DNA of 64,000 bases, from assembly GCA_000432855.1 (NCBI GenBank), contig HF990868.1, forward strand, positions 84,534-148,533, given 5' to 3'. Numbering within the stretch: the stretch's first letter is position 1; each line of letters starts with the position of its first letter. The notes under the pieces were generated by a model that worked only from the letters and a program-made list of their open reading frames with translations, was not told the DNA's origin and did no database searches. A program made the position numbers and the translations under genes. Shown here one piece after another: positions 17,475 through 30,644 of the stretch. This stretch comes from Firmicutes bacterium CAG:822. GTDB taxonomy: Bacteria > Bacillota_I > Bacilli_A > RF39 > UBA660.

Positions 17475-18761
17475 ATGGAAAAAATAGACATTATCAAAAA
17501 TATCACCGAACGAACAGGTGGAGATATTTATTTAGGAGTAGTAGGAGCCGTAAGAACTGGTAAATCAACCTTTATTAAAAGGTTTATCGAAAATCTCGTT
17601 GTTCCTAATATTGAAGATGAATATGAAAGAAAAAGAACCTTAGATGAAATTCCCCAATCAGCGCAAGGTAAAACTATCATGACTACTGAGCCCAAATTTG
17701 TTCCAAGCAATGCCGCTAAAATAAAAATTGATGATTTTACCGCTGATGTAAGATTAGTTGATTGTGTTGGATACATTATCGAAGGGGCCAAAGGTTATGA
17801 AGATGAAAATGGTCCTAGAATGGTTCACACCCCATGGTATGAAGAGTCAATACCATTTGTCGAAGCAGCTGAAATAGGCACTGAAAAAGTTATTAAAGAT
17901 CATTCGAGTATTGGGGTTTTGGTCACGACTGATGGCTCTATTGGTGAATTTGAAAGAAGTGACTATGTCGAAGCCGAACAAAGAATAGCTAAAGAACTAA
18001 AAGAAATAGGTAAACCATTTATTGTCATTGTCAATTCAACACATCCAATGTTGCCAGAAACTGAAAATTTAGCTGAAAAATTAAAAGAAGAATATGGTGC
18101 TCCTGTTATACCAATGAATATTGACAACATGAGTGAACGAGATGCTTATAATATTTTAAGAGAAGCACTATATGAATTTCCAGTCGTATGTATCGATGTT
18201 GAAATGGCCGATTGGGTCGCATGTTTAGAGCCAAATAACTGGTTAAAAAAATCATATATTGATGCCATTAGAAATAGTATTCATGAAATAGATAAACTTA
18301 GAGATATTGAACAAATAACCGGCAAATTAGAGGAATGCGAATATATTGAAAAGGCCTATCTATCAGAAGTGGATACCGCAACCGGTAATGTTAGGGTAAC
18401 CTTAAAAACACCAGCCAATCTTTACAACGAAGTATTAAAAGATATAATTGGTGTAGACATTACTAGTCGTTCCCAATTACTTAGTCTATTTCAAGATTTA
18501 GGCGAAGCCAAAAGAGAATACGACCAAGTAAAAGACGCTTTAAAGATGGTTAAGCAAACTGGTTATGGTGTTGCTTCACCAACCTTAAATGATATGACAC
18601 TAGACACTCCAGAAATAATCAAACAAGGAAGTCGTTATGGTATTAAATTGAAAGCCGTTGCTCCTTCAATTCACATAAGGAATATAATTCTGATGTTACT
18701 GTATTTGAAAGATGTCTTAATGCAAAAAGTAAGAAAAAATATGATTTCATTTACAATATAG
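17475..18761 (+). CDS. spoIVA: stage IV sporulation protein A, 5' segment (residues 1-400, then 28 element-encoded codons to a stop)
   Basis: MEKIDIIKNITERTGGDIYLGVVGAVRTGKSTFIKRF (Walker A), ..LKAVAPSIH collinear with SpoIVA. Homology ends at codon 400 (18674) and the tail IRNIILMLLY.. is unrelated. Confidence 0.85.
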   Translation: MEKIDIIKNITERTGGDIYLGVVGAVRTGKSTFIKRFIENLVVPNIEDEYERKRTLDEIPQSAQGKTIMTTEPKFVPSNAAKIKIDDFTADVRLVDCVGYIIEGAKGYEDENGPRMVHTPWYEESIPFVEAAEIGTEKVIKDHSSIGVLVTTDGSIGEFERSDYVEAEQRIAKELKEIGKPFIVIVNSTHPMLPETENLAEKLKEEYGAPVIPMNIDNMSERDAYNILREALYEFPVVCIDVEMADWVACLEPNNWLKKSYIDAIRNSIHEIDKLRDIEQITGKLEECEYIEKAYLSEVDTATGNVRVTLKTPANLYNEVLKDIIGVDITSRSQLLSLFQDLGEAKREYDQVKDALKMVKQTGYGVASPTLNDMTLDTPEIIKQGSRYGIKLKAVAPSIHIRNIILMLLYLKDVLMQKVRKNMISFTI

Positions 18762-18827
18762 AGAGTTATATAAGTATATAGAATATGTGCTGAAAAGCAT
18801 ATTTTTTATTTAATGGAAGTGAGAAAA

Positions 18828-19694
18828 ATGTCTAAAAAGAAAATGGGTATAGGAACAATAGATATTAATAAAAAATTTAAAGATCAAGAAGAAGCTAGTA
18901 GATATGCTAAAAGATTAAGAGAATATATTCGTTATATCTGTAAAAAGTATAATTATCAAGCAAGTGTTATGACAGTTATTAGTAATACAAAAAGTGATGT
19001 TACTTCATTAAGATATGTTCACAATGGGAAAAGAGGTAGACCTCGGAAACAATTAGTAGTTATGAATACTTATATGGCGAATGTTTGGTATAAAGGAAAT
19101 TTTAATACAGATTGGCATATTCATATTTTAATAGTAAGTAAACCTAGTTATGCACTTAGAAATCATATAAAAAAGTATGTTGATAAAAATTGGATTAATA
19201 TAGCTAATATTCGCGAAAAGAAAGAATTTGATATTAGTATGTTAAATAAAAAGAAAGTCTATAAAAAGACTTGTAATATTAAAATAGCTGATTATTTTAT
19301 TAATCAAAGTGCGGAAATAAGGTTTATGTCTTGTAATTATAGTGATGAAGATGATTTCAAATATAGTCTTAAAGATTATTATAAAGAATATATGAAGTTT
19401 CATTATAATTACATTAAACTTCATAGAAAAAATAAATCTTTGGGAATAACTATGAGCGAAGAAGAATTTATAAAAAGATATGCTAAGATAGAAAGTAAAT
19501 TTAAAATGATTGAAGATTATTTTTATAATATAACAAAAGAAGATGAAGAAAAAGCGAGAAAAGATTTTTTAAAGGAAATTAAAATATCAAAAATTATGGA
19601 AAATTATAATAAAATGCAGAATGTTAAATGTTTTAGAGCAGCTGATGGTAGTTTATTTATAATAAGAAGGAATGAAGAAGAAAGTATATTTTAA
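18828..19694 (+). CDS. hypothetical protein with possible HUH motif (WHIHILIV)
   Basis: RBS GGAAGTGAG before ATG 18828; an HxH-hydrophobic motif and downstream Tyr/Lys motifs suggest, weakly, a Rep/relaxase-like HUH protein. Confidence 0.4.
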   Translation: MSKKKMGIGTIDINKKFKDQEEASRYAKRLREYIRYICKKYNYQASVMTVISNTKSDVTSLRYVHNGKRGRPRKQLVVMNTYMANVWYKGNFNTDWHIHILIVSKPSYALRNHIKKYVDKNWINIANIREKKEFDISMLNKKKVYKKTCNIKIADYFINQSAEIRFMSCNYSDEDDFKYSLKDYYKEYMKFHYNYIKLHRKNKSLGITMSEEEFIKRYAKIESKFKMIEDYFYNITKEDEEKARKDFLKEIKISKIMENYNKMQNVKCFRAADGSLFIIRRNEEESIF

Positions 19695-19761
19695 CTGTCA
19701 TATAATAGATATGTATATAATCAGTATATAAATAATACAGAGATAAAACGAAAACAAATAT

Positions 19762-19790
19762 AAAAATCTCATGTTTAAATGAGATAAAAT
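19762..19790. terminator. bidirectional hairpin terminator (ATCTCAT-gtttaa-ATGAGAT) between convergent genes
   Basis: Perfect 7-bp stem flanked by A/T runs on both sides. Confidence 0.5.
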
Positions 19791-19883
19791 AGTATAAATT
19801 ATTTAATATTTGTTCTATATATTTATTTTGATTATGTTGAAAATAAAAGCTTTATTTAATAAAATTTAAGAAATGAGTATAGA

Positions 19884-20219
19884 TTATTTATCATTAAGTC
19901 CATCAATATAACTATTTATTTTAGCTTTATCAATAGTTGAAAGATTTCTATATTTATCTAGTAATTGTAATTCATCTTGTGGTAAAGAACTTGAAAAAGC
20001 GTTATTAATAGAATAATCTATATCAGTTCTCTCTAATAGATAATCAGTAGTAGTATTTAAGTAATCAGCAATTTTAATTAATGTATCAGCACTAGGTTTA
20101 GCTTTATTATTAAGATAAGCACTAATAGTTTCTTGAGTAACTCCAATTTGAACTGATAAATTTATTTGAGTAATGTTTTTCTTAGTCATAAGAGCTTTTA
20201 AATTTTTCATACATAACAC
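19884..20219 (-). CDS. XRE-family HTH transcriptional regulator
   Basis: ITQINLSVQIGVTQETISAYLNNKAKPSADTLIKIADYL is a typical cI/Cro-type HTH; divergent from the next operon. Confidence 0.75.
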   Translation of the reverse strand: MLCMKNLKALMTKKNITQINLSVQIGVTQETISAYLNNKAKPSADTLIKIADYLNTTTDYLLERTDIDYSINNAFSSSLPQDELQLLDKYRNLSTIDKAKINSYIDGLNDK

Positions 20220-20346
20220 CTCTATATCATTATAAATTTTATAAATTGTATTTTTAGATATTGTATTTATAATATATATAGATATAACTTGTATTTTGTA
20301 GAAATATAGTATATAATAAATTTATATTAGAAAGAGGTTGTTTGTA

Positions 20347-20940
20347 GTGGGAGAAAAAAAATTATGCAAATATTGTAAATCAGAAATTGATAAAAAAGCT
20401 AAAATATGTCCTTTTTGTAAACGAGGTCAAGGCAATGTTGTTCTTAGATTACTATTTGTATTTATTATTATAACTTTTGTTATCACAGTTCTTGCAAGTT
20501 TAGGAGATAGTTCAAATAGTACATCTAATGAAAAGAAAACAGTAAATATGGGAGAAAAAGTTACAGTTAATGATGTTGATTATATAGTTAATGAAAAGAA
20601 AATACAAAAAGAAATAAGTGTAGCTAGTGGTTATTTTAAATATACAGCTGATGGTAATTATTTGTTAATAAATATTACAATTACTAATAATAGTAAAAGT
20701 TCAATAAATATTGACTCAACAGATTTTAGATTAAAAGATGAAAACGGAGCTACATATTCAGCAAGTATATTAACAAGTGTTGATAATATGGATATGCTTA
20801 ATTTTGAAACAATAAATCCAAATGCAACTGAAAGTGGTTATATAGCTTATGATATAGCAAATACTGATTTACATTATACATTAACAATTGATGGCGATGA
20901 GTTTTTTGATTCAGCTGGAATAGAAGTTTCTATTCAGTAA
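20347..20940 (+). CDS. zinc-ribbon / single-TM protein with DUF4352-like extracellular domain
   Basis: GTG 20347 sits 9 nt after AGAGG. CKYC..CPFC zinc ribbon, then a TM helix, then a beta-rich domain (..YIAYDI..) resembling DUF4352. Confidence 0.5.
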   Translation: MGEKKLCKYCKSEIDKKAKICPFCKRGQGNVVLRLLFVFIIITFVITVLASLGDSSNSTSNEKKTVNMGEKVTVNDVDYIVNEKKIQKEISVASGYFKYTADGNYLLINITITNNSKSSINIDSTDFRLKDENGATYSASILTSVDNMDMLNFETINPNATESGYIAYDIANTDLHYTLTIDGDEFFDSAGIEVSIQ

Positions 20941-21183
20941 GGTTTAAGTCTAATAGTAATATTAGGCTTTTATTTTTGATTTAATAATGTATTTTTAAGC
21001 AATAAGAGATTATCATATATTTTATTGAATTATTATATTTGACTTGTTATAAAGCGATTATGTTAAGAAATATAATATAATTTGAACAAATAGATTAAAA
21101 AGTCGGGACAAAGAATAGTTGAAGATATATAATATTTAAAAAATCATTGTTTTTTAGTGTATAATAGGTTTTGGTGATGTTAT

Positions 21184-23169
21184 ATGGAACAAAAGTACAT
21201 GGATGAAGATGAAGTAATAAGTCTTATAGACAATTATGTAAAAAACGTTAAAATAGATTATGCAATTCTTTTAGATGGTGCTTGGGGAAGCGGAAAAACT
21301 AAATTTATACAAGAAAAAGTAATAAAAAAGCTTAATGATGATTATAAAAAAGAAAAGTCAAAAACAAAAGATGATAAAGATGAAAACATTAAAGCAAAAA
21401 GACCTATATATATATCTTTATATGGTATAAACTCTATAGATGATATTAAGTCACAATTATTACAATCAATTATAAGAAGTGAAAAAATAAAAAAATATAT
21501 ACCAATAATTAACATTGGTGCTACTATAGTTGATGATATAGTAAAATCATGTTCAAATGTTTCTGACATAAGTAAAAAAATAGAAGATTTAGTTACATTT
21601 TTTTATAAATTAGATAATACAGTTATATTCTTTGATGATTTAGAAAGGTGTAATCTTAATATAAATTTAGTATTAGGATATATAAATCAATTAGTTGAGC
21701 ATAATCATTTAAAAGTTGTTTTAATTGCAGATGAAAACAAGATTGGAAAACTGAATTATGAAGATAATAAAGAATTAAAATATTTAACTGTTTTAAATGA
21801 ACACATTGATTTTCAGCAAACAGAAAAAAAAGATATAATGGGTAATCATCAACAAGGAAATACTACATTTACTATAGAAGATATAGAAAATCGTTCAAAG
21901 ATGTTATTTAGAGAAAATATATTTTATAATGAGATAAAAGAAAAATTAATTGGTCAAACAATATATTTTAAGCCAAATATAAACAATATATATGATATTA
22001 TGGCAAATGAAATAATTTCAGATGCAAAAGTTAAAGATATAGTTAATGAAAAGAAAGAACTTTTAATTAGTATGCTATCAAAAAAAGAACATTTGAATTT
22101 GAGAACTTTACAATTTATTTTTCAAACATTTGAAACATTAGTTAAAATTTCAATGGAGGAAGTAGATTTACGAGATTTTAAAGATCAATATTTAACAAAT
22201 TTATTTGAATATTGTATATTAAAATCAATACAGATTAAAAATGGGCAAACATCATATAATTGGAAAGAAAATCAAGAATTTGGAACAATATATTTAGGCG
22301 ATGAAAAAAATGAATATAATTATAATAATTATGTAAATGGATTCAAATTTGTTGATGATTATTTAATGTATTCTTATATAGATAAAGCAGCAATTAAAAC
22401 AACGCTTGAAAATTATATTTATGTTAAAACATTAGAAATTGAAAACCCTAATGATCCATTATATAAGCTAAAAAAATACTGGTTAATTCCAGAACAAGAG
22501 TTAGAAAATATAGTTGATGAAATTATAGATAATATTAGTAAAAATAAATATGTTCTAAATTTATATTCTAAAATTGTATTTTATTTTGCTTGTATTTTTG
22601 ATATGGGAATATGTGAAGATAAAATCAATAATGCTATAAAATTATTAGAAAAGAACATAGAAGAAGAGTGTGTTCAGGGTACATTTGAAGAAGAAAGATT
22701 ACATACAAATTCAAAAAGTGTTTCTCAGAAATATAAAGAATTTATGAAAAAAATAAGAACATTAGTAAATAAGAAAGAAACAAAAACTAAACATGATGAA
22801 ATAATAAAAATTTTAGAAAGCAATAATTGGGGAAGTGAGTTAAAAGAATATTGTAAAACAAATGTTGGACAATTTCTTGAAGACAAAAAATACGCATATT
22901 TGTTAAATATTGAATTAATTATTAATAATATTAAAAATAAAAATATAGAACAAATATATGAATTCTTATATTCGTTACAACAAATATATGGTTTTTCTAG
23001 TGTAAAGGATTATTTTATAGAAGACAAAAATATTTTAATTAATTTAAAACAAGAGTTATCTAATATAGATAATATTGACAAAGTAAAAAGATATGTAATT
23101 AATGATATTATTTCTTTATTAGATGATGTCATTAATATTTTAAATTCTAAAAACGAAAAAGCAAATTAA
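21184..23169 (+). CDS. KAP-family P-loop NTPase
   Basis: AILLDGAWGSGKT is the diagnostic KAP Walker A (G-x-WG-x-GKT); 661 aa, long helical C-terminal region. Confidence 0.7.
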   Translation: MEQKYMDEDEVISLIDNYVKNVKIDYAILLDGAWGSGKTKFIQEKVIKKLNDDYKKEKSKTKDDKDENIKAKRPIYISLYGINSIDDIKSQLLQSIIRSEKIKKYIPIINIGATIVDDIVKSCSNVSDISKKIEDLVTFFYKLDNTVIFFDDLERCNLNINLVLGYINQLVEHNHLKVVLIADENKIGKLNYEDNKELKYLTVLNEHIDFQQTEKKDIMGNHQQGNTTFTIEDIENRSKMLFRENIFYNEIKEKLIGQTIYFKPNINNIYDIMANEIISDAKVKDIVNEKKELLISMLSKKEHLNLRTLQFIFQTFETLVKISMEEVDLRDFKDQYLTNLFEYCILKSIQIKNGQTSYNWKENQEFGTIYLGDEKNEYNYNNYVNGFKFVDDYLMYSYIDKAAIKTTLENYIYVKTLEIENPNDPLYKLKKYWLIPEQELENIVDEIIDNISKNKYVLNLYSKIVFYFACIFDMGICEDKINNAIKLLEKNIEEECVQGTFEEERLHTNSKSVSQKYKEFMKKIRTLVNKKETKTKHDEIIKILESNNWGSELKEYCKTNVGQFLEDKKYAYLLNIELIINNIKNKNIEQIYEFLYSLQQIYGFSSVKDYFIEDKNILINLKQELSNIDNIDKVKRYVINDIISLLDDVINILNSKNEKAN

Positions 23170-23364
23170 TTATATTTAGCGTTTAAAAAAGTACACATTT
23201 TCAAAGATTTAAAATAGTAGTTATTTTAAGTCTTTTTTTGTTTGTAAAAGTATGTTTTATAATTTTTAAATATTTAAAAAGTTTTTGGACTTTTTCAAAG
23301 TATCGGGAGTGACAATATTAAAATTTGTTTATAAAATTAAAGTAAAGTGGAAAGGAGTTTTAAA

Positions 23365-23595
23365 GTGAACAAATCAATATTAATTAAAATAGTAAAATGG
23401 ATTTGTGATGGTTATGTTGATGCTTTAATCACAGGAATAGAAGAAAATGAAAATTATTTTCCTTATACTATCGCAGTTATTCATTTTATAGATGAACTTC
23501 AAAGAAAAAACATTAAAATTGATTATAAAGAAATATTTAATGACTCTATAATTGATAATGTTTTAAAAGAAGCAAATGATTATTTAATGAGGTGA
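23365..23595 (+). CDS. small hypothetical protein
   Basis: AAGGAG RBS 8 nt before GTG 23365; its stop is 4 nt before the invertase gene. Confidence 0.4.
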   Translation: MNKSILIKIVKWICDGYVDALITGIEENENYFPYTIAVIHFIDELQRKNIKIDYKEIFNDSIIDNVLKEANDYLMR

Positions 23596-23599
23596 TATT

Positions 23600-24196
23600 T
23601 TGAAAAATAAAGTATTTGGTTATGCTAGAGTTAGCAGTAAAGAACAAAACGAAGAAAGACAATTATCAGCATTTCAAAAATTTGGTATTGATGAAAGAGA
23701 TATTTATGTTGATAAACAAAGCGGTAAAGATTTTAATAGAAAAGAATATCTTACACTTAAAAATATATTAAGAGAAAATGATTTATTAGTTATTAAAAGC
23801 ATTGATAGATTAGGAAGAAATTACGATATGATAGTTAATGAGTGGAAAGATATTACTAAGAATATTAAAGCAGATATTGTTGTTATTGATATGCCTTTAT
23901 TAGATACTAGAAAAAATAAAGATTTATTAGGAACATTTATTAGCGATATTGTATTACAAATATTATCGTATGTCGCAGAACAAGAAAGAACATTTATTAA
24001 GCAAAGACAAAAAGAAGGTATTTTAGTAGCTAAGAACAATGGAGTTAAATTTGGTAGACCAAAAATAGAAAAACCACAAAATTTTGATATTGTGGTTAAT
24101 AAATGGAAAAATAAAGAAATCAAAAGTAAAGATGCTATGAAGCTATTAGGACTTAAAGCAAATACATTTTATAATATGGTTAAAGATATTAGTTAA
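23600..24196 (+). CDS. small serine recombinase (resolvase/DNA-invertase type)
   Basis: VFGYARVSSKEQNEERQ (catalytic Ser), a resolvase N-terminal domain and a C-terminal HTH; 198 aa. Confidence 0.8.
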   Translation: MKNKVFGYARVSSKEQNEERQLSAFQKFGIDERDIYVDKQSGKDFNRKEYLTLKNILRENDLLVIKSIDRLGRNYDMIVNEWKDITKNIKADIVVIDMPLLDTRKNKDLLGTFISDIVLQILSYVAEQERTFIKQRQKEGILVAKNNGVKFGRPKIEKPQNFDIVVNKWKNKEIKSKDAMKLLGLKANTFYNMVKDIS

Positions 24197-25079
24197 TCGG
24201 ATAGTTATTTTCATAATTATTAATAAAGTCTTTTAATATACTTATATCATTAGTCTTTAGATATTGTTTCATAGCTTCTTTATATCGTTTCTTATAATTA
24301 TCAATATATTCTAAAGAAACATATTTGTTATTATTAAGACGATGTAAAAAATTAGTATGTTTTTTATTCAACTGTAAATATTGATAAGTCTTTTTTAAAA
24401 TCATTGACTTTTTGGCACAAGTAATATCTTTATCATTAAATTTAGTAATTCGTTTACAATATTTAGAATCAGTTTCAGTGGTTAAATAATATCTATCACA
24501 TATATCACATTTTTTAAGACAGTATTTTCGTTTAGAAGTAAATACACAATGTAAAAAACTAATTAGCATATCTGATATTTCATATTTACTTTTATTAGTA
24601 AATATAGTTTTTTCAGAAATTAGATTAAAATTACTATCTGATAATTGTTCTTCTAATAGTGATTTTCTTTCACTAATAGGAAATAACATTTTAGGGTTTT
24701 TAGTATTTTTTATAATAACATTATTATCATAATCAGTCTTATTTATTGTTGTATTTGTGTTTCTTCCATTATTTTGAACTGAAAAATCATAACTAGTAAG
24801 TTTGTCAAAATTAGTATATAAAAATCTTTCAGAAATAGGAGAAATTTGAGTTTTAGATGATACTAAAAAAGTAAACCAAGTTGAATTATCTATATAATCA
24901 TAATTAGTACTTTCAAATAGTCTTTCTAAAAACATTTTAGAATATTCATCTTTCATAATGCAAAAATCAAAAATTTCGTGAAAATCTAGTTTTATAAGTT
25001 TATTATCTGATTTAATTGCGATTTCTTTTGTATTTAGATTTTCATAAAATGTCATTATTTTATAATGCTCATTGCTCAT
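24189..25079 (-). CDS. hypothetical protein with C-terminal Cys cluster (CLKKCDICDRYY...C..C)
   Basis: 296-aa ORF convergent with and 8 nt overlapping the invertase gene; no recognised domain. Confidence 0.45.
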   Translation of the reverse strand: MSNEHYKIMTFYENLNTKEIAIKSDNKLIKLDFHEIFDFCIMKDEYSKMFLERLFESTNYDYIDNSTWFTFLVSSKTQISPISERFLYTNFDKLTSYDFSVQNNGRNTNTTINKTDYDNNVIIKNTKNPKMLFPISERKSLLEEQLSDSNFNLISEKTIFTNKSKYEISDMLISFLHCVFTSKRKYCLKKCDICDRYYLTTETDSKYCKRITKFNDKDITCAKKSMILKKTYQYLQLNKKHTNFLHRLNNNKYVSLEYIDNYKKRYKEAMKQYLKTNDISILKDFINNYENNYPIN

Positions 25080-25273
25080 ATAATATCATCTCATTTCTTT
25101 ATTATATATATAGAAAATGTTTTTGCAAAAACTTCTTCAATATAAAGATTACTATATATTATATTTGTTATATAATCAAATTGTCAATTAATTAAATGAA
25201 AATTATTGTCAATTGCTTAAGATAATATATAATACATAATTTTCATAAAATGGACTAGAAAGGAAGATTATAT

Positions 25274-25552
25274 ATGACATTTATGAGTGAATATGATGAC
25301 AATAACAATTTAATTAAAGAGTCTTTGATAGATAAATATGGTAATGAAGAAGTATCATATTTAAACGAAGATTTAGATAAAGAGTTAAATGGTATACAGT
25401 TGTTTAAAGATTTAGGCACATTTTATAAATTACAATTAACTATCAATAAACAAATGTATGAAAGCGGTGATATATCTAAAGAACTTTATAATAAAGTTGA
25501 AGATATAATACTAGATAGAATAAAACCATTTCAAAAATATATTAATAATTAA
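25274..25552 (+). CDS. small hypothetical protein upstream of large serine recombinase
   Basis: 92 aa, acidic; AGGAGG-containing junction to the recombinase gene 13 nt downstream. Confidence 0.45.
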   Translation: MTFMSEYDDNNNLIKESLIDKYGNEEVSYLNEDLDKELNGIQLFKDLGTFYKLQLTINKQMYESGDISKELYNKVEDIILDRIKPFQKYINN

Positions 25553-25565
25553 AGGAGGTGTCATA

Positions 25566-27197
25566 ATGGAACTATATCGTATAAGAGAAGAATTAAAAAC
25601 AAAGAGTATAACAGATATTCCTTTAAGAGTAACCTTTTATGCTAGAGTATCTACTGATAAATATGAACAACTAAATTCATTAGAAAATCAAGTTTCTTAT
25701 TTTAAAGATTTAATAAAGCAAAATAAGAACTGGACTTATGTTGATGGATATGTAGATGAAGGTATTAGTGGTACATCAACAAACAAAAGAGAAAGTTTCT
25801 TAAAAATGATAGAAGATGGTAAAGAAAAAAAATTTGATTTAATCTTAACAAAAGAAGTTTCAAGATTTGCTAGAGATACATTAGATAGTATTGCAAATAC
25901 TAGATTATTGTTAAAATATGATGTTGGAGTACAATTCATAAATGACGGAATTAATACATTAATGCCTGACTCAGAACTAAGATTAACTATTATGTCTTCA
26001 CTAGCACAAGATGAAGTCAGAAAATTATCAGAGAGAGTTAAATTTGGTTATCAAAGGTCAATAAAAAGTGGCAGAGTATTAGGAAATGATGATATTTGGG
26101 GTTATGATAAAAAAGATGGAAAACTTACTATTAATGAAGAAGAAGCAAAAATGATTAGAAGAATATTTGAACTATATACAACAGGAAAATATGGTTTGAA
26201 TACAGTATCAAAAATTATCTATAAAGAGGGATTTAAAAACAAAAATGGTAATAAATTATCAATGACAACAATTAGTTATATCATTAGAAATCCAAAATAT
26301 AAAGGTTATTACTGTGGAAATAAGTCAACAATAGTTGATTATAAACTTAAAAAGAAAATTAAGAAAGATCAAGAAGATTGGGTAATGTATGAAGACCATG
26401 AAACAGTACCTCCAATCATAAGTGAAGAACAATGGGAATTAGCACAGACTATTTATAATAAAAGAAGTGCAAAATGTAGTGATGTAGATAAAAGAATATA
26501 TCAAAATAGATATACTTTTAGTGGAAAAATCAAATGTAATTGTCATGATAAAAGTTTTCATAGAAAAGTATATAGATATAAAACAAAAGATGACGCAGTT
26601 GTTTGGTTATGTCCATATAATAATGGAACAAAAGTAGAAAAATGTGATACTCCTGTACTTTATGAAACTGAATTAATGCAAATACTTAGACAACAAATAA
26701 AAGATTTCATTAATCGTAAAGAAAGTATTATTTATTCATTAACTCAGTTATATAAAGAGAATATTAACTTAAGAGATTATGATAAAGAAATCAATAAGAA
26801 ATTAAGTGATATAGAAGTAATTAAAAGACAAAAAGATAAGTTGTTATCACATAATATGAATGATATTATTTCTGATAAAGAGTTTATGATTAGAAATAAT
26901 GAATGTAATGATAAAATTAAAATATTAGAAAATGAAATTGAAAACATTAGAACAGAAAAAAGAAAATCAGATAATATGGAAGAAGAAGTCTTAAAATTAG
27001 AGCAATTAATAGAAGATAAGATAAATTTTCCATCAGATGATATGATAATTGATTTATTAGATAAAATTGTAGTTTATAGCAGTGATGAAACTCATAATGT
27101 AAAACTAAGAATATATCTAAAAATCGGCGAAGAAATTATCGCTGATTATAAAAATCATAAATCACATCAGTTTAATGTTGTCAAGGCATATGATTAG
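25566..27197 (+). CDS. large serine recombinase (resolvase domain + recombinase domain + zinc ribbon + coiled coil); the 3' end crosses the right junction into spoIVA
   Basis: YARVSTDKYEQ catalytic Ser; FARDTLDSIANTRLL; zinc ribbon CNCH...C..C; 543 aa. The last codons and the TAG stop (27195-97) lie in host spoIVA DNA beyond the AT crossover. Confidence 0.9.
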   Translation: MELYRIREELKTKSITDIPLRVTFYARVSTDKYEQLNSLENQVSYFKDLIKQNKNWTYVDGYVDEGISGTSTNKRESFLKMIEDGKEKKFDLILTKEVSRFARDTLDSIANTRLLLKYDVGVQFINDGINTLMPDSELRLTIMSSLAQDEVRKLSERVKFGYQRSIKSGRVLGNDDIWGYDKKDGKLTINEEEAKMIRRIFELYTTGKYGLNTVSKIIYKEGFKNKNGNKLSMTTISYIIRNPKYKGYYCGNKSTIVDYKLKKKIKKDQEDWVMYEDHETVPPIISEEQWELAQTIYNKRSAKCSDVDKRIYQNRYTFSGKIKCNCHDKSFHRKVYRYKTKDDAVVWLCPYNNGTKVEKCDTPVLYETELMQILRQQIKDFINRKESIIYSLTQLYKENINLRDYDKEINKKLSDIEVIKRQKDKLLSHNMNDIISDKEFMIRNNECNDKIKILENEIENIRTEKRKSDNMEEEVLKLEQLIEDKINFPSDDMIIDLLDKIVVYSSDETHNVKLRIYLKIGEEIIADYKNHKSHQFNVVKAYD

Positions 27198-27465
27198 AGT
27201 TGATGTTGAAAGCACCTTTGAACCAATTATAGGTTCGGAAATTCAAAGTAAAGAACTTATTAATTATTTAATGAAGGACAAAGAATCTGGAAGTCAAAAT
27301 ATTTGGAAAAGTGAAATCTTTGGCCGTAGCTTAGACGTTATAGTTCAAGAAGGTATTCAAGCAAAACTATCACTAATGCCAGAAAGTGTTCGCTTTAAAT
27401 TAAAACAAACACTTTCAAAACTAGTAAATAAAGGTTCTGGGAACTTATTCGCCATTGTCATTTAA
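27190..27465 (+). CDS. spoIVA: stage IV sporulation protein A, 3' segment (residues 401-491)
   Basis: MIRVDVESTFEPIIGSEIQSKELINYLMKD..FGRSLDVIVQEGIQAKLSLMPESVRFKLKQTL..GSGNLFAIVI matches the conserved SpoIVA C-terminus. It is in frame with the 5' segment once 18677-27189 is removed. Confidence 0.85.
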   Translation: MIRVDVESTFEPIIGSEIQSKELINYLMKDKESGSQNIWKSEIFGRSLDVIVQEGIQAKLSLMPESVRFKLKQTLSKLVNKGSGNLFAIVI

Positions 27466-29100: not shown

Positions 29101-29409
29101 TTTCTTTTAATTTATTCTTCCACATAACCAATCAACTGAACAATTATATTCTTTCGCAAACTTTCAAATATATACTGTTAGAATCAAAACATTATTATTT
29201 TCATAAGTATATTATGTAGAATCAATAGTATTTGAAGAACTCATAATCTTTTTTGTGATTTATAAATTTTATTTTTACAAAATAGTTATTAAATGTTTAC
29301 TATATTATATGACAAAGTTGTGATATAATTAAGTAAAGTAGATGAGTAAATAATGTAGTAATATATATAATTTACAATCTAATAAAATATGTAGAAAGAA
29401 GGAGAGAAC

Positions 29410-30519
29410 ATGGCCAAAACCGCCTTAGAAGCATTACAATGTCCTAAATGTGGTTGAGCAGTTGAACTTGATAGTAATCAAGAATATGGGGTTTGTAAAT
29501 ATTGTGGAGCAAAAGTACAGAACACAAATTTTAAGAAAATTAAAGGAGAAGTAAAAATAATAGGAAATCCAACTGTAGAAAACTTTATAAAATTAGCAAA
29601 AAGAGACTATGATGACGAAAACTATAATGAAACATTAGAAAAATATAATAAAGTTTTAGACATTGAACCAGATAATTGGGAAGCTGTTTATAAAAGAGGA
29701 ATATGTATTACAAAAACAACCACTCTTGGCGCATTTAGAATGGACGATATTGTTAAAGGCTCAAAAAATGCATTAAAGATTATTGAGGAAAACAAAGAAC
29801 TAAAAGTAAATATAAATCAAATAAAATTAGATATGGCATATGATATATTAATGTCTTGCTATGAAATGTTTAGATTTGCATTAAATCATTATAACGAATT
29901 TTGGGAATTGGAAAATTCTGCATCTGAAATGTGGAATAGGGAAGCAGCAGTATTAAATGCGGCTGAATATGCTGCAACACTTATAGAAGGTATACCAGAC
30001 GATAAAATAAAGACTACAATATCTGGAGAAACAAAAAAAGATGTATTATTATCTGCATACGATGCAATAATTCTTTGCTGCGTTACAATTTGTCAAACAA
30101 GAAGTTATAAAGATTTAAATAGTTATCCTAAAACTTGGATAAAAGATGAATATAGAAATAATTATGTTCAGATTTATGATAAATATTCAGCAAAGATAAA
30201 AGAAATTGATCCTAATAAAGAAATCAAGAAAATTCAAAGAACAGGTAATCAGGGATGTTATATAGCTACCTGTGTGTATGGCTCATATGATTGTCCAGAA
30301 GTATGGACCTTAAGAAGATTCAGAGATAATGATTTAGCAAAGAAATGGTATGGAAAATTATTTATTCATATTTATTATTCCATTAGTCCTACGATTGTTA
30401 AATTATTTGGTAAAAGCAAATGGTTTAAAAGCATATTTAAACCTTCATTAGATAAACTTGTAAAAAGATTAAAAGAACAAGGATATGAGTCATCACCATA
30501 TGATGATCAAACATGGTAA
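29410..30519 (+). pseudogene. zinc-ribbon + TPR-like protein with conserved Cys-containing C-terminal module, interrupted by in-frame TGA at 29455-29457
   Basis: Strong RBS GAAGGAGAG before ATG 29410. MAKTALEALQCPKCG-TGA-AVELD..CKYCG continues in frame into ORF 29740..30519; C-terminal GCYIATCVYGSYDCPEVWTLRRFRDN. Confidence 0.55.
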
Positions 30520-30561
30520 TTATACTAATTCCAGCTTTAATACATTTATAAAGACAACATC

Positions 30562-30587
30562 AAAGTCCATTTTTGGACTTTTTTCTA
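30562..30587 (+). terminator. rho-independent terminator (AAGTCC-attttt-GGACTT + T run)
   Basis: Perfect stem followed by 6 T. Confidence 0.6.
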
Positions 30588-30644
30588 TACATATTCTTGT
30601 AAAGAAGTAGATATTTAAGTTATAATAAATAACAAGGTGATTTT

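What the first reader, a model, noticed from the sequence alone, without database searches (positions are those of the whole stretch)
18813..25552. Cargo of the spoIVA element: KAP NTPase, zinc-ribbon/DUF4352 membrane protein, XRE repressor, HUH-like protein, a second (small) serine recombinase and a Cys-cluster protein
The element carries no sporulation genes. It has an HUH-motif candidate (WHIHILIV, 18828..19694), an XRE repressor divergent from a zinc-ribbon/TM/DUF4352-like gene, and a 661-aa KAP-family P-loop NTPase (DGAWGSGKT). It also has a Hin/resolvase-type small serine recombinase (23600..24196) convergent with and overlapping a 296-aa Cys-cluster protein. KAP NTPases are frequent in defence or abortive-infection islands. 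A small invertase inside an excisable element suggests an additional invertible or resolvable segment. The recombinase operon is preceded by two direct copies of TTGTCAATT (25181-89, 25206-14), a possible operator.
Basis: partly seen in the sequence, partly recalled or inferred. Interest (0 to 1): 0.6.

Follow-up and report, generated by a model that had tools for sequence, protein, structure and literature searches.

The report
Mobile island splitting spoIVA, variable cargo
An 8.5-kb non-phage mobile island splits the spore-coat gene spoIVA of a human-gut Firmicute; it has a fixed backbone and a strain-variable cargo slot holding a candidate anti-phage KAP ATPase, and its small recombinase looks like a plasmid-type resolvase, not a switch that flips DNA.

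Summary
Profile searches confirm XRE, Zn-ribbon/TM/DUF4352, KAP NTPase, a small and a large serine recombinase, and (barely) DUF6076.

The element is a discrete 8,515-bp insertion (18677-27191). A strain 99% identical in the flanks has an intact 491-aa spoIVA with exactly the predicted junction.

Related islands in other uncultured Bacilli share a backbone: orf1, XRE, orf76/82, small recombinase, sometimes DUF6076, a small ORF, then a large serine recombinase. Some sit in spoIVA and others in different genes with unrelated integrases.

Between a conserved promoter and a conserved terminator lies a cargo slot. In this family it holds three KAP NTPase types (PADLOC PDC-S49 here, PDC-S20, PifA-like), PDC-S11, an ApeA-like protein and Macro domains. 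Within this species the KAP cassette is present, absent or replaced.

Three corrections:
- The small recombinase is Sin-resolvase-like, has one conserved upstream dyad region per element, and shows no flanking inverted repeats or inverted variants.
- The two TTGTCAATT copies are the -35 hexamers of two back-to-back promoters.
- The HUH assignment of orf1 rests on invariant motifs only.

Defence function and sporulation-timed excision are inferred, not shown. I rate it a new variant of a known kind, of moderate interest.

The parts
17475..18676 (+). 5' part of spoIVA (codons 1-400 plus 2 nt), ending ...APSIH
   Evidence: SpoIVA_ATPase 2e-109 and SpoIVA_middle 4e-56. Joins in frame to 27192.
18677..27191 (.). 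The inserted element (8,515 bp). The AT crossover dinucleotide lies at 18675-18676 and 27190-27191, within a CAYAT core.
   Evidence: Junctions are conserved in 10 species. Empty-site strain L188 aligns across the joined flanks in one HSP at 99.2%. GC is 22% against 28-29% in the flanks.
18828..19694 (+). orf1 (288 aa), a backbone protein of an unannotated family with invariant HxH, Y150 and Y161xxxQ165. Candidate HUH Rep/relaxase, unproven.
   Evidence: 136 homologs, none annotated. Invariant residues. AF2 pLDDT 78.8. No profile or fold match.
19884..20210 (-). XRE-family repressor (108 aa). It is a divergent allele, 42-46% identical to the otherwise 78-94% conserved XRE of sibling elements.
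   Evidence: HTH_3 4e-15. dN/dS table.
20220..20337 (.). Divergent promoter region between XRE and cargo slot 1. It contains three TTGTATTT repeats and TTGTAT-17-TATAAT reading rightward.
   Evidence: Read from sequence. The equivalent region is conserved up to the cargo RBS in sibling elements.
20338..20940 (+). Cargo slot 1: Zn-ribbon / single TM / DUF4352 membrane protein.
   Evidence: DUF4352 6e-22. phrog_806 1e-25. TM segment at 34-52. Zn-ribbon/TM part is 35% identical to the slot-1 protein of L001.
21135..21146 (+). Left copy (TTTAAAAAATCA) of the 12-bp imperfect direct repeat bounding the KAP cassette.
   Evidence: KAP-less strains retain one hybrid copy...TTTAAAAAATCA|CACATTTTC.
21184..23169 (+). 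Cargo slot 2: KAP-family P-loop NTPase (661 aa; Walker A GAWGSGKT, Walker B FFDDLER; no TM insert). It is preceded by the conserved TGTATAAT...GGTGAT leader.
   Evidence: KAP_NTPase 7e-12. PADLOC PDC-S49 2.6e-52 over its full length. phrog_4740 6e-35. Present, absent or replaced among strains. Leader.
23182..23193 (+). Right copy (TTTAAAAAAGTA) of the direct repeat. It is also the start of the conserved non-coding region.
23205..23240 (+). Conserved intrinsic terminator closing the cargo slot (14-bp stem plus T-run).
   Evidence: RNAalifold finds 14 pairs, 4 of them with compensatory double changes, in 11 elements.
23241..23299 (.). Conserved dyad region, one per element: TTTGTAAAAGT ... TAAATATTT ... 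AAAAGT-N6-ACTTTT(TCAAA). Candidate res site or operator of the small recombinase.
   Evidence: Alignment A3, 67% column identity in non-coding DNA. nhmmer finds one copy per element, with a self-reverse hit. Repeat mapping.
23309..23337 (+). Promoter-like site GTGACA-17-TAAAAT for the orf76/82 and small-recombinase operon.
23365..23595 (+). orf76/82, a small backbone ORF located 4 bp upstream of the small recombinase. Function unknown.
   Evidence: Conserved position in all elements, 33-49% identity. No family hit.
23600..24196 (+). Small serine recombinase, Sin-resolvase-like (R10, S12, DRLGR; C-terminal HTH). The most conserved protein of the family (80-86% identity).
   Evidence: Resolvase 2.5e-25. 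Sin 7.9e-30, gamma-delta 7e-19, Gin/Hin about 1e-8. dN/dS about 0.1. Nearest plasmid 'res' genes are 60-62% identical.
24189..25079 (-). DUF6076-like protein with an invariant C4 zinc site. Backbone gene, lost in the L001-L009 lineage.
   Evidence: DUF6076 3.9e-5. 26 representatives. The five sequenced contexts outside this species (L039, L045, L174, L175, L176) all lie in this element family. Invariant Cys. AF2 pLDDT 84.8 with no PDB fold match.
25114..25137 (.). Palindrome AAAATGTTTTTGCAAAAAC(T)T in the DUF6076 leader, conserved in L039 and L045.
25158..25187 (-). Consensus promoter TTGACA-18-TATAAT (12/12) reading into DUF6076. Its -35 is the first 'TTGTCAATT' copy read on the other strand.
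25206..25233 (+). Promoter TTGTCA-16-TATAAT (11/12) reading into orf92 and the large recombinase. Its -35 is the second 'TTGTCAATT' copy.
25274..25552 (+). orf92, a small ORF that co-varies with the spoIVA-type integrase. Candidate directionality factor.
   Evidence: Found only with the spoIVA-type integrase, 43-54% identity. Elements with other integrases carry unrelated ORFs in this position.
25566..27197 (+). Large serine recombinase (543 aa). Its last codons run across attR.
   Evidence: Resolvase 1e-29, Recombinase 2.5e-19, Zn_ribbon_recom. phrog_95 integrase 4e-109. dN/dS 0.13-0.24.
27192..27465 (+). 3' part of spoIVA (MIRVDVES... to the stop codon).
   Evidence: TIGR02836 positions 399-492, 7e-34. 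dN/dS 0.08-0.22.

Best explanation
The region is the interior of an 8,515-bp non-phage integrative island. A large serine recombinase inserted it at a fixed site in spoIVA of 'Firmicutes bacterium CAG:822'.

**Backbone and cargo.** The island is a conserved backbone carrying a plug-in cargo slot. The backbone is orf1, an XRE repressor, orf76/82 with a Sin-like resolvase, a DUF6076 zinc-ribbon protein, and orf92 with the integrase. The cargo lies between the XRE-divergent promoter and a conserved terminator. It has two positions, each with its own fixed promoter/RBS leader. In this copy they hold a Zn-ribbon/TM/DUF4352 membrane protein and a KAP NTPase of PADLOC family PDC-S49.

**Shown.**
- The element boundaries are exact, and an empty site exists in a near-identical strain.
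- The backbone is conserved across species and across integration sites.
- Backbone genes and both spoIVA halves are under purifying selection.
- Cargo turns over between species and between strains.

**Inferred.**
- The cargo genes are anti-phage or other conflict genes, exchanged between islands by recombination in the conserved flanks.
- The integrase, probably with orf92, excises the island precisely in the mother cell so that spoIVA is restored, as in skin- and gin-type elements.
- The small recombinase acts as a resolvase on the single conserved dyad region upstream of its operon. It would resolve dimers or cointegrates of the excised circle, and possibly autoregulate. It does not invert a segment.
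- orf1 may be the replication or mobilisation nuclease of the circle.
For: **Discrete insertion.**
- The in-silico join gives a 491-aa SpoIVA.
- Strain L188 has that gene at 99.5% identity with no gaps, and its flanks align across the joined window flanks in a single HSP at 99.2%.
- One sample holds both an occupied strain and an empty strain.

**Same site in many species.** Ten species-level genomes carry an element at the same site, with a CAYAT core.

**Backbone conserved at other loci.** The same backbone occurs with integrases only 23-27% identical: in an NMT1 gene in L039 (flanked there by NMT1 fragments on both sides), in L042, and at a different site in L045.

**Selection.**
- Small recombinase: 80-86% identity, dN/dS about 0.1 with dS 0.6-1.1.
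- spoIVA halves: dN/dS 0.08-0.23.
- Integrase: dN/dS 0.13-0.24.

**Cargo slot.**
- The promoter is conserved up to the cargo RBS.
- The terminator shows compensatory changes.
- The leader TGTATAAT..GGTGAT is conserved before the last cassette.

**Cargo content.** PDC-S49, PDC-S20 and a Macro/DarG-like protein, PDC-S11 at 1e-101 and ApeA_NTD1, and a PifA-like KAP at 1e-44.

**Cargo shuffling.**
- An ADP-ribosylglycohydrolase is 95% identical between two elements whose orf1 proteins are 48% identical.
- Within the species there are KAP+, KAP-less and replaced alleles, bounded by a 12-bp repeat.

**Resolvase reading.**
- The small recombinase is closest to Sin.
- Its nearest plasmid relatives are 'res' genes of small Bacillus cereus plasmids. 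The one examined (AP022898.1) is a rolling-circle plasmid that also carries an HUH Rep and an XRE.
- There is one dyad region per element.

**Not a phage.** No structural or lysis PHROGs, no orf1 relatives in IMG/VR or the phage and plasmid collections, and no Rfam or tRNA hits.
Against: - No experiment or read-level evidence for excision, circles or sporulation timing was available.
- The orf92-integrase operon has a sigma-70-type promoter, and I could not identify a mother-cell promoter in this 78% AT sequence.
- PDC-S49 is only a candidate defence family. I found no paper on it.
- DUF4352, the L184 cassette and several sibling cargo genes have no defence annotation.
- The resolvase target is inferred from conservation and symmetry only.
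- orf1 has no detectable similarity to any HUH family.
- Cargo exchange by homologous recombination cannot be distinguished from a site-specific route with these data.
Confidence: 0.7

Rival explanations
1. The small recombinase is a Hin/Gin-type invertase that flips a segment, for example 23200-25270, inside the element. That would give two expression states.
For: - PHROG names the best family 'DNA invertase' (phrog_125, 1e-47).
- The recombinase and DUF6076 are convergent and overlap, an odd arrangement.
- A weak 17/20 inverted match links 23270-23289 to 25124-25143.
Against: - Sin resolvase scores 7.9e-30 against about 1e-8 for Gin/Hin.
- The best inverted pairs between the two flanks are reached by 7 to 59 of 60 shuffles.
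- No inverted arrangement appears in any of the assemblies inspected across species and strains.
- nhmmer finds a single copy of the conserved site per element.
- The L001-L009 lineage keeps the recombinase but lacks the DUF6076 segment.
Confidence: 0.05
2. The island is an integrative mobilisable element or integrative rolling-circle plasmid. orf1 is a new HUH-type Rep/relaxase that nicks the excised circle, the resolvase keeps it monomeric, and the island spreads between strains by piggy-backing on conjugative elements.
For: - HxH lies in the central predicted strand (98-110). Y161xxxQ165 lies on the following helix, and Y150 is invariant.
- The HUH + YxxxQ pattern recalls IS200/IS605 TnpA (my own recollection).
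- The small Bacillus cereus plasmid with the closest 'res' gene has HUH Rep + XRE + resolvase.
- The same backbone occurs at three or more loci with different integrases, and presence is polymorphic at 99% flank identity. Both imply mobility.
- IMEs with a single serine integrase that disrupt genes are known (PMC5704250).
Against: - No HUH, Rep or relaxase Pfam family is hit by any of 38 family members, even at E<10.
- No PDB or BFVD fold match at E<1e-3.
- hhalign against the plasmid Rep gives probability 0.1.
- No orf1 homolog in 72,556 plasmids or 50,697 phages.
- No oriT or dso was identified.
Confidence: 0.3
3. The island is a decayed prophage remnant (skin-like). Its genes are leftovers with no current function except the excision module.
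For: - The best-known intervening elements are defective prophages (PMC5025042, PMC10747680).
- An XRE repressor next to a DUF4352 membrane protein resembles a lysogeny module, and phrog_806 and phrog_4740 hits exist.
Against: - There are no structural, packaging or lysis genes.
- The same compact gene set is kept in many species and at several loci, with dN/dS of 0.1-0.45.
- The backbone family is absent from phage collections.
Confidence: 0.08
4. The island is never excised. SpoIVA works as two polypeptides, a 428-aa N fragment plus a 91-96-aa C fragment translated by coupling to the integrase gene.
For: - An ATG-initiated ORF (27175-27465) overlaps the integrase stop by 23 bp.
- Gene callers report it as a separate SpoIVA_C product.
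- Both halves are under purifying selection. That is also what this model predicts.
Against: - The integrase is itself under purifying selection.
- Junctions are exact and an empty site exists.
- Every studied intervening element restores its gene by excision (PMC5595907, PMC4191935).
- The N fragment ends in 27 unrelated residues.
Confidence: 0.05

Closest known systems
gin element in gerE of Bacillus cereus ATCC 10987 (Abe et al. 2017, PMC5595907)
   Same: It is a non-phage island that interrupts a sporulation gene. It has low GC, carries more than one serine recombinase of which only one (GirC, with the small factor GirX) does the excision, and carries defence cargo (a restriction-modification system). 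Its authors suggested that the extra recombinases might resolve multimers.
   Different: gin has 31 genes against 9 here. Its target gene is different. Its extra recombinases are a girAB pair rather than a Sin-like small resolvase, and the backbone genes are not shared. Excision here is untested.
skin (sigK), SPbeta (spsM), vfbin, yin and related prophage-type intervening elements
   Same: A large serine recombinase sits next to one end. There is a short shared core at both junctions, and precise excision would restore the ORF. Small directionality factors are encoded nearby.
   Different: Those elements are prophages or prophage remnants of 20-130 kb. This island has no phage genes. In Bacillus subtilis spoIVA is expressed in the mother cell from sigma-E-dependent promoters (established knowledge of the B. 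subtilis programme; PMC5025042 treats spoIVA as a sigma-E target in C. difficile), whereas skin-type excision serves the later sigma-K stage. Excision here would therefore have to happen earlier. I found no report of a spoIVA-interrupting element.
Tn4451/Tn4453 and other serine-integrase IMEs of Firmicutes (review PMC5704250)
   Same: These are small (about 6 kb) non-conjugative elements moved by one large serine recombinase using a 2-bp core. They carry accessory cargo, and site-specific members insert inside genes.
   Different: Tn4451 has low site specificity, a MobV relaxase and antibiotic-resistance cargo. Here the site is fixed, no known relaxase family is present, and the cargo looks defence-related.
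Sin resolvase / resH of Staphylococcus aureus plasmids, and 'res' genes of small Bacillus plasmids
   Same: This is the best sequence match of the small recombinase (2r0q, 7.9e-30; 60-62% identity to Bacillus cereus plasmid 'res'). The catalytic R, S and DRLGR residues are present. A conserved dyad-rich region lies directly upstream of the gene, which is where res sites normally sit.
   Different: The gene is embedded in a chromosomal island behind a small extra ORF and convergent with DUF6076. The res-like site is unverified, and its sequence is not demonstrably similar to resH.
KAP NTPases in anti-phage systems: PADLOC PDC-S49 and PDC-S20 candidates, PifA, QatA
   Same: Walker A and B motifs are present and the Pfam KAP_NTPase domain is found. 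The PDC-S49 profile matches over its full length. Sibling islands carry PDC-S20 and PifA-like KAPs in the same slot.
   Different: PDC-S49 has no published test that I could find. This protein lacks the TM insert described for many KAP NTPases (my own recollection). It gives no hit to PifA or QatA.
Defence hotspots of P2/P4-type phages and satellites (Rousset et al. 2022, from my own knowledge)
   Same: Conserved flanking genes and regulatory signals bracket a short slot whose content is swapped between otherwise similar mobile elements. The slot is enriched in defence genes.
   Different: The carrier here is a non-phage serine-integrase island in Gram-positive gut bacteria, parked in a sporulation gene.

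Membership tests
Sporulation-gene intervening element | Interrupts the ORF of a sporulation gene. The two halves are otherwise intact. | tested here: met
   spoIVA N and C parts. No internal stops, and dN/dS is 0.08-0.23 in both halves.
Sporulation-gene intervening element | Site-specific recombinase encoded at one end, with a short identical core at both junctions. | tested here: met
   A 543-aa large serine recombinase ends across attR. The AT dinucleotide in a CAYAT core is present at both junctions in 10 species.
Sporulation-gene intervening element | Precise removal restores a full-length gene. | tested here: met
   The in-silico join gives 491 aa. A natural empty site is 99.5% identical with no gaps.
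Sporulation-gene intervening element | Excision occurs during sporulation in the mother cell and needs a directionality factor. | not testable with these tools
   orf92 is only a positional candidate. No mother-cell promoter could be called. The visible promoter is sigma-70-type.
KAP family P-loop NTPase (PF07693) | Pfam model above the gathering score, with Walker A and B motifs. | tested here: met
   45.6 bits against a cutoff of 20. GAWGSGKT and FFDDLER are read from the translation.
KAP family P-loop NTPase (PF07693) | Transmembrane helices inserted in the NTPase domain (described for many members; my own recollection). | tested here: not met
   The best 19-residue hydropathy window is only 1.33. 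This is not a universal feature of the family.
PADLOC PDC-S49 (candidate single-gene defence) | Full-length match to the family profile. | tested here: met
   PDLC05031, 2.6e-52, residues 11-658 against profile positions 9-621 of 624.
PADLOC PDC-S49 (candidate single-gene defence) | Protects against phage. | not testable with these tools
   Context only. The slot holds other defence-type genes. A homolog lies beside Abi_2 and a SLFN-like helicase.
Small serine recombinase, resolvase type (Sin/Tn3) | Resolvase catalytic domain with the R..S nucleophile motif and DRLGR, plus a C-terminal HTH. Closer to resolvases than to invertases. | tested here: met
   PF00239, 2.5e-25. YARVSS and DRLGR read from the translation. 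Sin 7.9e-30, gamma-delta 7e-19, Gin/Hin about 1e-8.
Small serine recombinase, resolvase type (Sin/Tn3) | A res site with several dimer-binding subsites next to the gene. | tested here: inconclusive
   A conserved, dyad-rich region of about 110 bp lies upstream, one per element. No binding data exist, and no similarity to known res sequences was established.
DNA invertase (Hin/Gin) | Two inverted crossover sites flanking an invertible segment. | tested here: not met
   No inverted pair beyond shuffles. One site per element. No inverted variants in any assembly.
HUH endonuclease (Rep / relaxase / Y1 transposase) | HUH motif on a beta strand and a catalytic Tyr on a nearby helix. | tested here: inconclusive
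   H102xH104 is invariant and lies in predicted strand 98-110. Y161xxxQ165 is invariant and lies on helix 158-164. Y150 is invariant but sits in a low-confidence loop.
HUH endonuclease (Rep / relaxase / Y1 transposase) | Detectable sequence or fold similarity to a known HUH family. | tested here: not met
DUF6076 (PF19553) | Pfam model above the gathering score. | tested here: met
   23.9 bits against a cutoff of 23.5, covering only residues 186-279. Borderline. The L039 homolog is annotated DUF6076 in precomputed Pfam.
DUF4352 (PF11611) | Pfam model above the gathering score. | tested here: met
   78.6 bits against a cutoff of 25.9.
Prophage | Capsid, tail, terminase or lysis genes. | tested here: not met
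   PHROG hits are limited to repressor, recombinases and two families of unknown function.

The most novel reading that the evidence does not exclude
The island family is a dedicated carrier for defence cassettes. It has two fixed expression slots (own promoter/RBS leader, shared terminator). The Sin-like recombinase and its adjacent site, which begins exactly at the stop codon of the last cassette, capture or swap cassettes site-specifically in an integron-like way. orf1 is a new HUH-type nuclease that replicates or mobilises the excised circle. Parking the island in spoIVA guarantees vertical inheritance while removing it from the terminal mother cell.
Probability: 0.12. Interest if true: 0.75.

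Novelty: new variant of a known kind. Interest (0 to 1): 0.5.

Why it matters
- **A new target gene.** This would add spoIVA, a morphogenetic ATPase needed early in the mother cell, to the short list of sporulation genes split by excisable elements. Excision timing would have to be earlier than for sigK- or gerE-type elements.
- **A compact defence carrier.** It defines a small, non-phage island family in uncultured gut Bacilli. The cargo slot concentrates candidate defence genes and turns over between strains. That makes it a tractable place to test PADLOC candidates (PDC-S49, PDC-S20, PDC-S11) and several unannotated cassettes.
- **Unstudied backbone proteins.** Three backbone proteins have confident structure models and invariant catalytic-looking residues but no known relatives: the orf1 family, the DUF6076 zinc-ribbon protein, and orf76/82.

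Tried and rejected
- **Invertible segment.** Searched for inverted repeats across the element and specifically between 23100-23400 and 25050-25300 with shuffles. Nothing exceeded chance. No inverted variants were seen in related or same-species assemblies.
- **Operator reading of ATTGTCAATT x2.** Replaced by two divergent -35 hexamers. The motif is absent from the XRE intergenic region and not conserved in sibling elements.
- **HUH assignment of orf1.** All of these were negative:
  - four profile libraries;
  - a Pfam scan of 38 family members at E<10;
  - a PDB profile search;
  - Foldseek against PDB and BFVD;
  - hhalign against a plasmid Rep;
  - tblastn against plasmids and phages;
  - IMG/VR.
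- **DUF6076 fold.** The AF2 model is confident but has no PDB match.
- **Circular-form (attP) search in metagenome contigs.** My degenerate pattern was too loose.
- **Human-faecal 'Bacteriophage sp.' contigs with related small recombinases (51-58% identity).** The three retrieved and checked share no other backbone gene.
- **Integron-like repeated sites between cargo genes.** nhmmer found only one copy of the conserved region per element.
- **Sporulation sigma promoters upstream of orf92.** They could not be called reliably in 78% AT sequence.

Full report
**1. What is in the sequence**

The window codes for SpoIVA in two pieces.
- The first piece (17475-18676) matches the ATPase and middle domains.
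- The second piece (27192-27465) matches positions 399-492 of the 492-position TIGR02836 model.
- Between them lie 8,515 bp of 22% GC DNA, against 28-29% in the flanks.

Profile searches confirm most of the labels:

| ORF | Result |
|---|---|
| XRE | HTH_3, 4e-15 |
| Membrane protein | DUF4352, 6e-22, behind a Cys4 ribbon and one TM helix |
| 661-aa protein | KAP_NTPase, 45.6 bits (cutoff 20) |
| 198-aa protein | Resolvase, 2.5e-25 |
| 543-aa protein | Resolvase + Recombinase + Zn ribbon |
| 296-aa Cys-cluster protein | DUF6076, 23.9 bits (cutoff 23.5) |

orf1, orf82 and orf92 hit nothing in Pfam, PHROGs, NCBIfam or PADLOC. There are no tRNAs or Rfam families in the element.

**2. The element is a discrete, polymorphic insertion**

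Joining 18676 to 27192 across a shared AT dinucleotide gives an uninterrupted 491-aa SpoIVA.

Exact look-ups identify the source as 'Firmicutes bacterium CAG:822'. A look-up of the adjacent HU protein found strains with the same gene order and an intact 491-aa spoIVA. One of them, L188, aligns to the window's joined flanks in a single 11.3-kb HSP at 99.2% identity. Its spoIVA is 99.5% identical to my in-silico join, with no gap.

One metagenome sample contains both an occupied and an empty strain. So the boundaries are exact and the element has been gained or lost recently.

**3. It belongs to a family with a conserved backbone**

A scan of one genome per species with the large recombinase found nine further species ('uncultured Bacilli/Tenericutes/Mycoplasma' MAGs) with a related element at the identical spoIVA position, all with the CAYAT core.

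Look-ups of orf1, DUF6076 and KAP homologs found the same gene order elsewhere:
- inside an NMT1-family transporter gene, flanked by NMT1 fragments on both sides (L039);
- beside a single NMT1 fragment, with a second integrase on the other side (L042);
- next to a Hydrolase_2 gene (L045, L174);
- at another site (L176);
- as a decayed copy (L047).

Where measured (L039, L042, L045), the integrases of these copies are only 23-27% identical to this one.

The shared backbone is orf1, XRE (opposite strand), cargo, orf76/82, the small recombinase, DUF6076 (opposite strand, lost in the L001-L009 lineage), a small ORF, then the integrase.

Conservation and selection:
- The small recombinase is the most conserved protein, at 80-86% identity everywhere. 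dN/dS is about 0.1 with dS 0.6-1.1, so this is purifying selection and not recent spread.
- XRE is 78-94% identical among the other elements but only 42-46% identical to the window's copy. The window therefore carries a different repressor allele.
- Both spoIVA halves (dN/dS 0.08-0.23) and the integrase (0.13-0.24) are also constrained. This argues that the split gene is still used and that the excision enzyme is kept.

**4. The real cargo**

The true cargo lies between the XRE-divergent promoter and a conserved terminator.
- In sibling elements the promoter region is conserved right up to the RBS of the first cargo gene.
- The terminator hairpin after the last cargo gene has 14 pairs, 4 of them with compensatory double changes.
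- The last cassette is always preceded by a short conserved leader, TGTATAAT...GGTGAT, then 4-6 nt, then ATG.

Slot content across the family:

| Element | Cargo |
|---|---|
| Window | DUF4352 protein + KAP NTPase (PADLOC PDC-S49, 2.6e-52, full length) |
| L009 | KAP of family PDC-S20 (8e-45) |
| L174 | 841-aa KAP matching PifA (1e-44) |
| L039 | DUF4268 = PDC-S11 (1e-101), ApeA N-terminal domain protein, ADP-ribosylglycohydrolase |
| Several | Macro domains (one DarG-like) with a 188-aa protein whose sequence suggests a PD-(D/E)xK nuclease motif (my reading; no profile hit) |

Cargo is mosaic. The ADP-ribosylglycohydrolase is 95% identical between two elements whose orf1 proteins are 48% identical and whose integrases are unrelated.

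Within CAG:822, assemblies with an identical small recombinase show three alleles:
- DUF4352 + KAP, as in the window;
- DUF4352 alone;
- a different pair of genes (275 and 110 aa, no family hit) in place of KAP.

The KAP cassette is bounded by an imperfect 12-bp direct repeat: TTTAAAAAATCA at 21135 and TTTAAAAAAGTA at 23182. KAP-less strains keep one hybrid copy, with 2,047 bp missing.

A 57%-identical KAP homolog elsewhere sits behind an XRE gene and an ADP-ribosylglycohydrolase, beside Abi_2 and a Schlafen-like helicase.

This is the pattern of a defence hotspot. The defence function itself is inferred. PDC families are candidates only, and I found no paper on PDC-S49 or DUF6076.

**5. The small recombinase is a resolvase, not an invertase**

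- Its best solved relative is Sin resolvase (7.9e-30), ahead of gamma-delta (7e-19) and Tn3 resolvase (1e-16). Gin/Hin-type invertases are far behind, at about 1e-8.
- Its nearest plasmid relatives (60-62% identity) are 'res' genes of small Bacillus cereus plasmids. The one examined also encodes an HUH Rep and an XRE protein.
- Directly upstream of its operon lies about 180 bp of non-coding DNA conserved in every element. It contains the terminator, a dyad-rich stretch (TTTGTAAAAGT ... TAAATATTT ... AAAAGT-N6-ACTTTT) and a promoter.
- nhmmer finds exactly one copy per element, plus a reverse-strand self-hit that reflects the dyad symmetry.
- No inverted-repeat pair brackets the recombinase/DUF6076 segment beyond what shuffles give.
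- No assembly, across species or strains, shows an inverted arrangement.

The simplest reading is that the enzyme acts on directly repeated copies of this single site. That would resolve dimers or cointegrates of the excised circle, and possibly repress its own promoter. This step is inferred.

**6. The 'operator' repeats are promoter hexamers**

The promoter scan's two best hits in the whole element are back to back:
- TTGACA-18-TATAAT (12/12) on the minus strand, 25187 to 25158, reading into DUF6076;
- TTGTCA-16-TATAAT (11/12) on the plus strand, 25206-25233, reading into orf92 and the integrase.

ATTGnCAAT is a palindrome, so the same word serves as a -35 on either strand. The repeats are absent from sibling elements and from the XRE intergenic region. 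They may still be bound by something, but no operator need be invoked.

A different palindrome, AAAATGTTTTTGCAAAAAC, lies in the DUF6076 leader and is conserved in L039 and L045.

**7. orf1 and DUF6076 remain unassigned**

*orf1.* It has 136 unannotated homologs. Invariant residues include H102, H104, Y150, and Y161/F162/I163/Q165. The AF2 model (pLDDT 78.8) places HxH in the long central strand and Y161xxxQ165 on the next helix. That is what an HUH nuclease would look like.

Every similarity test was negative. The more sensitive structure libraries were unavailable. I put about 0.3 on the HUH reading.

*DUF6076-like protein.* It has 26 representatives at 50% clustering. All five contexts outside this species that I could inspect (L039, L045, L174, L175, L176) lie in this element family. 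It has an invariant C4 site and a confident model with no PDB fold match. Its strong promoter faces the 3' end of the recombinase gene with no terminator between them, so antisense interference is possible. That is speculation.

**8. Comparison with what is known**

- **Closest precedent: the gin element in gerE of Bacillus cereus.** It is non-phage, carries several serine recombinases of which one plus a small factor does the excision, and carries restriction-modification cargo. Its authors themselves suggested a multimer-resolution role for the extra recombinases (PMC5595907).
- **Other kin:** serine-integrase IMEs that insert within genes (PMC5704250) and phage or satellite defence hotspots (my own knowledge).
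- **What differs here:**
  - The target gene. I found no report of an interrupted spoIVA.
  - The very small size.
  - The specific backbone: Sin-like resolvase, orf1 family, DUF6076.
  - The two fixed expression slots.
  - The modular swapping of integrase modules between otherwise homologous islands.

**9. Verdict**

- It is wrong or unsupported on the invertible segment and the operator.
- It is undecided on HUH.
- The object is a new variant of a known kind, and interest is moderate.

The main untested links are excision during sporulation, anti-phage activity, the resolvase target, and the activity of orf1.

Noticed in passing
L003:2018-3604 and L049:2929-4515 (sibling species): A second, unrelated large serine recombinase (528 aa, 26% identical to the window's) sits immediately upstream of spoIVA codon ~121. 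In these genomes spoIVA is apparently interrupted twice by two different elements.
   Followed up: partly
window 29101-30600 (between the CCA-adding enzyme gene and dnaD): A second strain-variable spot. The window has a 259-aa ORF (29740-30519). Other strains of the same species carry instead an XRE plus a 295-aa gene, a 578-aa gene, a 950-aa Flg_new/DUF285/LRR protein or a 369-aa Zn-ribbon/TPR protein.
   Followed up: no
L182:1316-2866 (same species, between the 3-hydroxyacyl-CoA dehydrogenase gene and spoIVA): One strain has a HipA_C kinase gene and a HIRAN-domain gene inserted just upstream of spoIVA. Both are absent from the window.
   Followed up: no
L042:553-2262 and L042:10729-11919: The element in L042, which lies beside a single NMT1 gene fragment, has an extra 569-aa serine recombinase (47% identical to the window's) directly left of orf1 and a HipA_C gene after its own integrase. 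Three independent contigs break just upstream of the extra recombinase. This suggests tandem or composite elements.
   Followed up: no
window 19884-20210 versus sibling elements: The window's XRE repressor is only 42-46% identical to the XRE of all other family members, which are 78-94% identical to each other. Its intergenic region has its own repeats (TTGTATTT x3). It looks like a distinct 'immunity' type.
   Followed up: partly
window 27175-27465: The spoIVA 3' fragment is preceded by an in-frame ATG that overlaps the integrase stop by 23 bp. Gene callers report a separate 91-aa SpoIVA_C product, so translational coupling to the integrase is possible.
   Followed up: no
L180 (ERZ21549426): One same-species assembly shows the whole locus broken into many short ORFs. 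The flanking housekeeping genes are broken as well, which points to frameshift-rich long-read assembly rather than biological decay.
   Followed up: no
L191:2300-12340: A 57%-identical KAP homolog lies in what looks like a recombinase-less remnant of the same cargo module (XRE, a 213-aa protein, ADP-ribosylglycohydrolase, KAP). It is flanked by Abi_2 and a Schlafen-like helicase gene.
   Followed up: no
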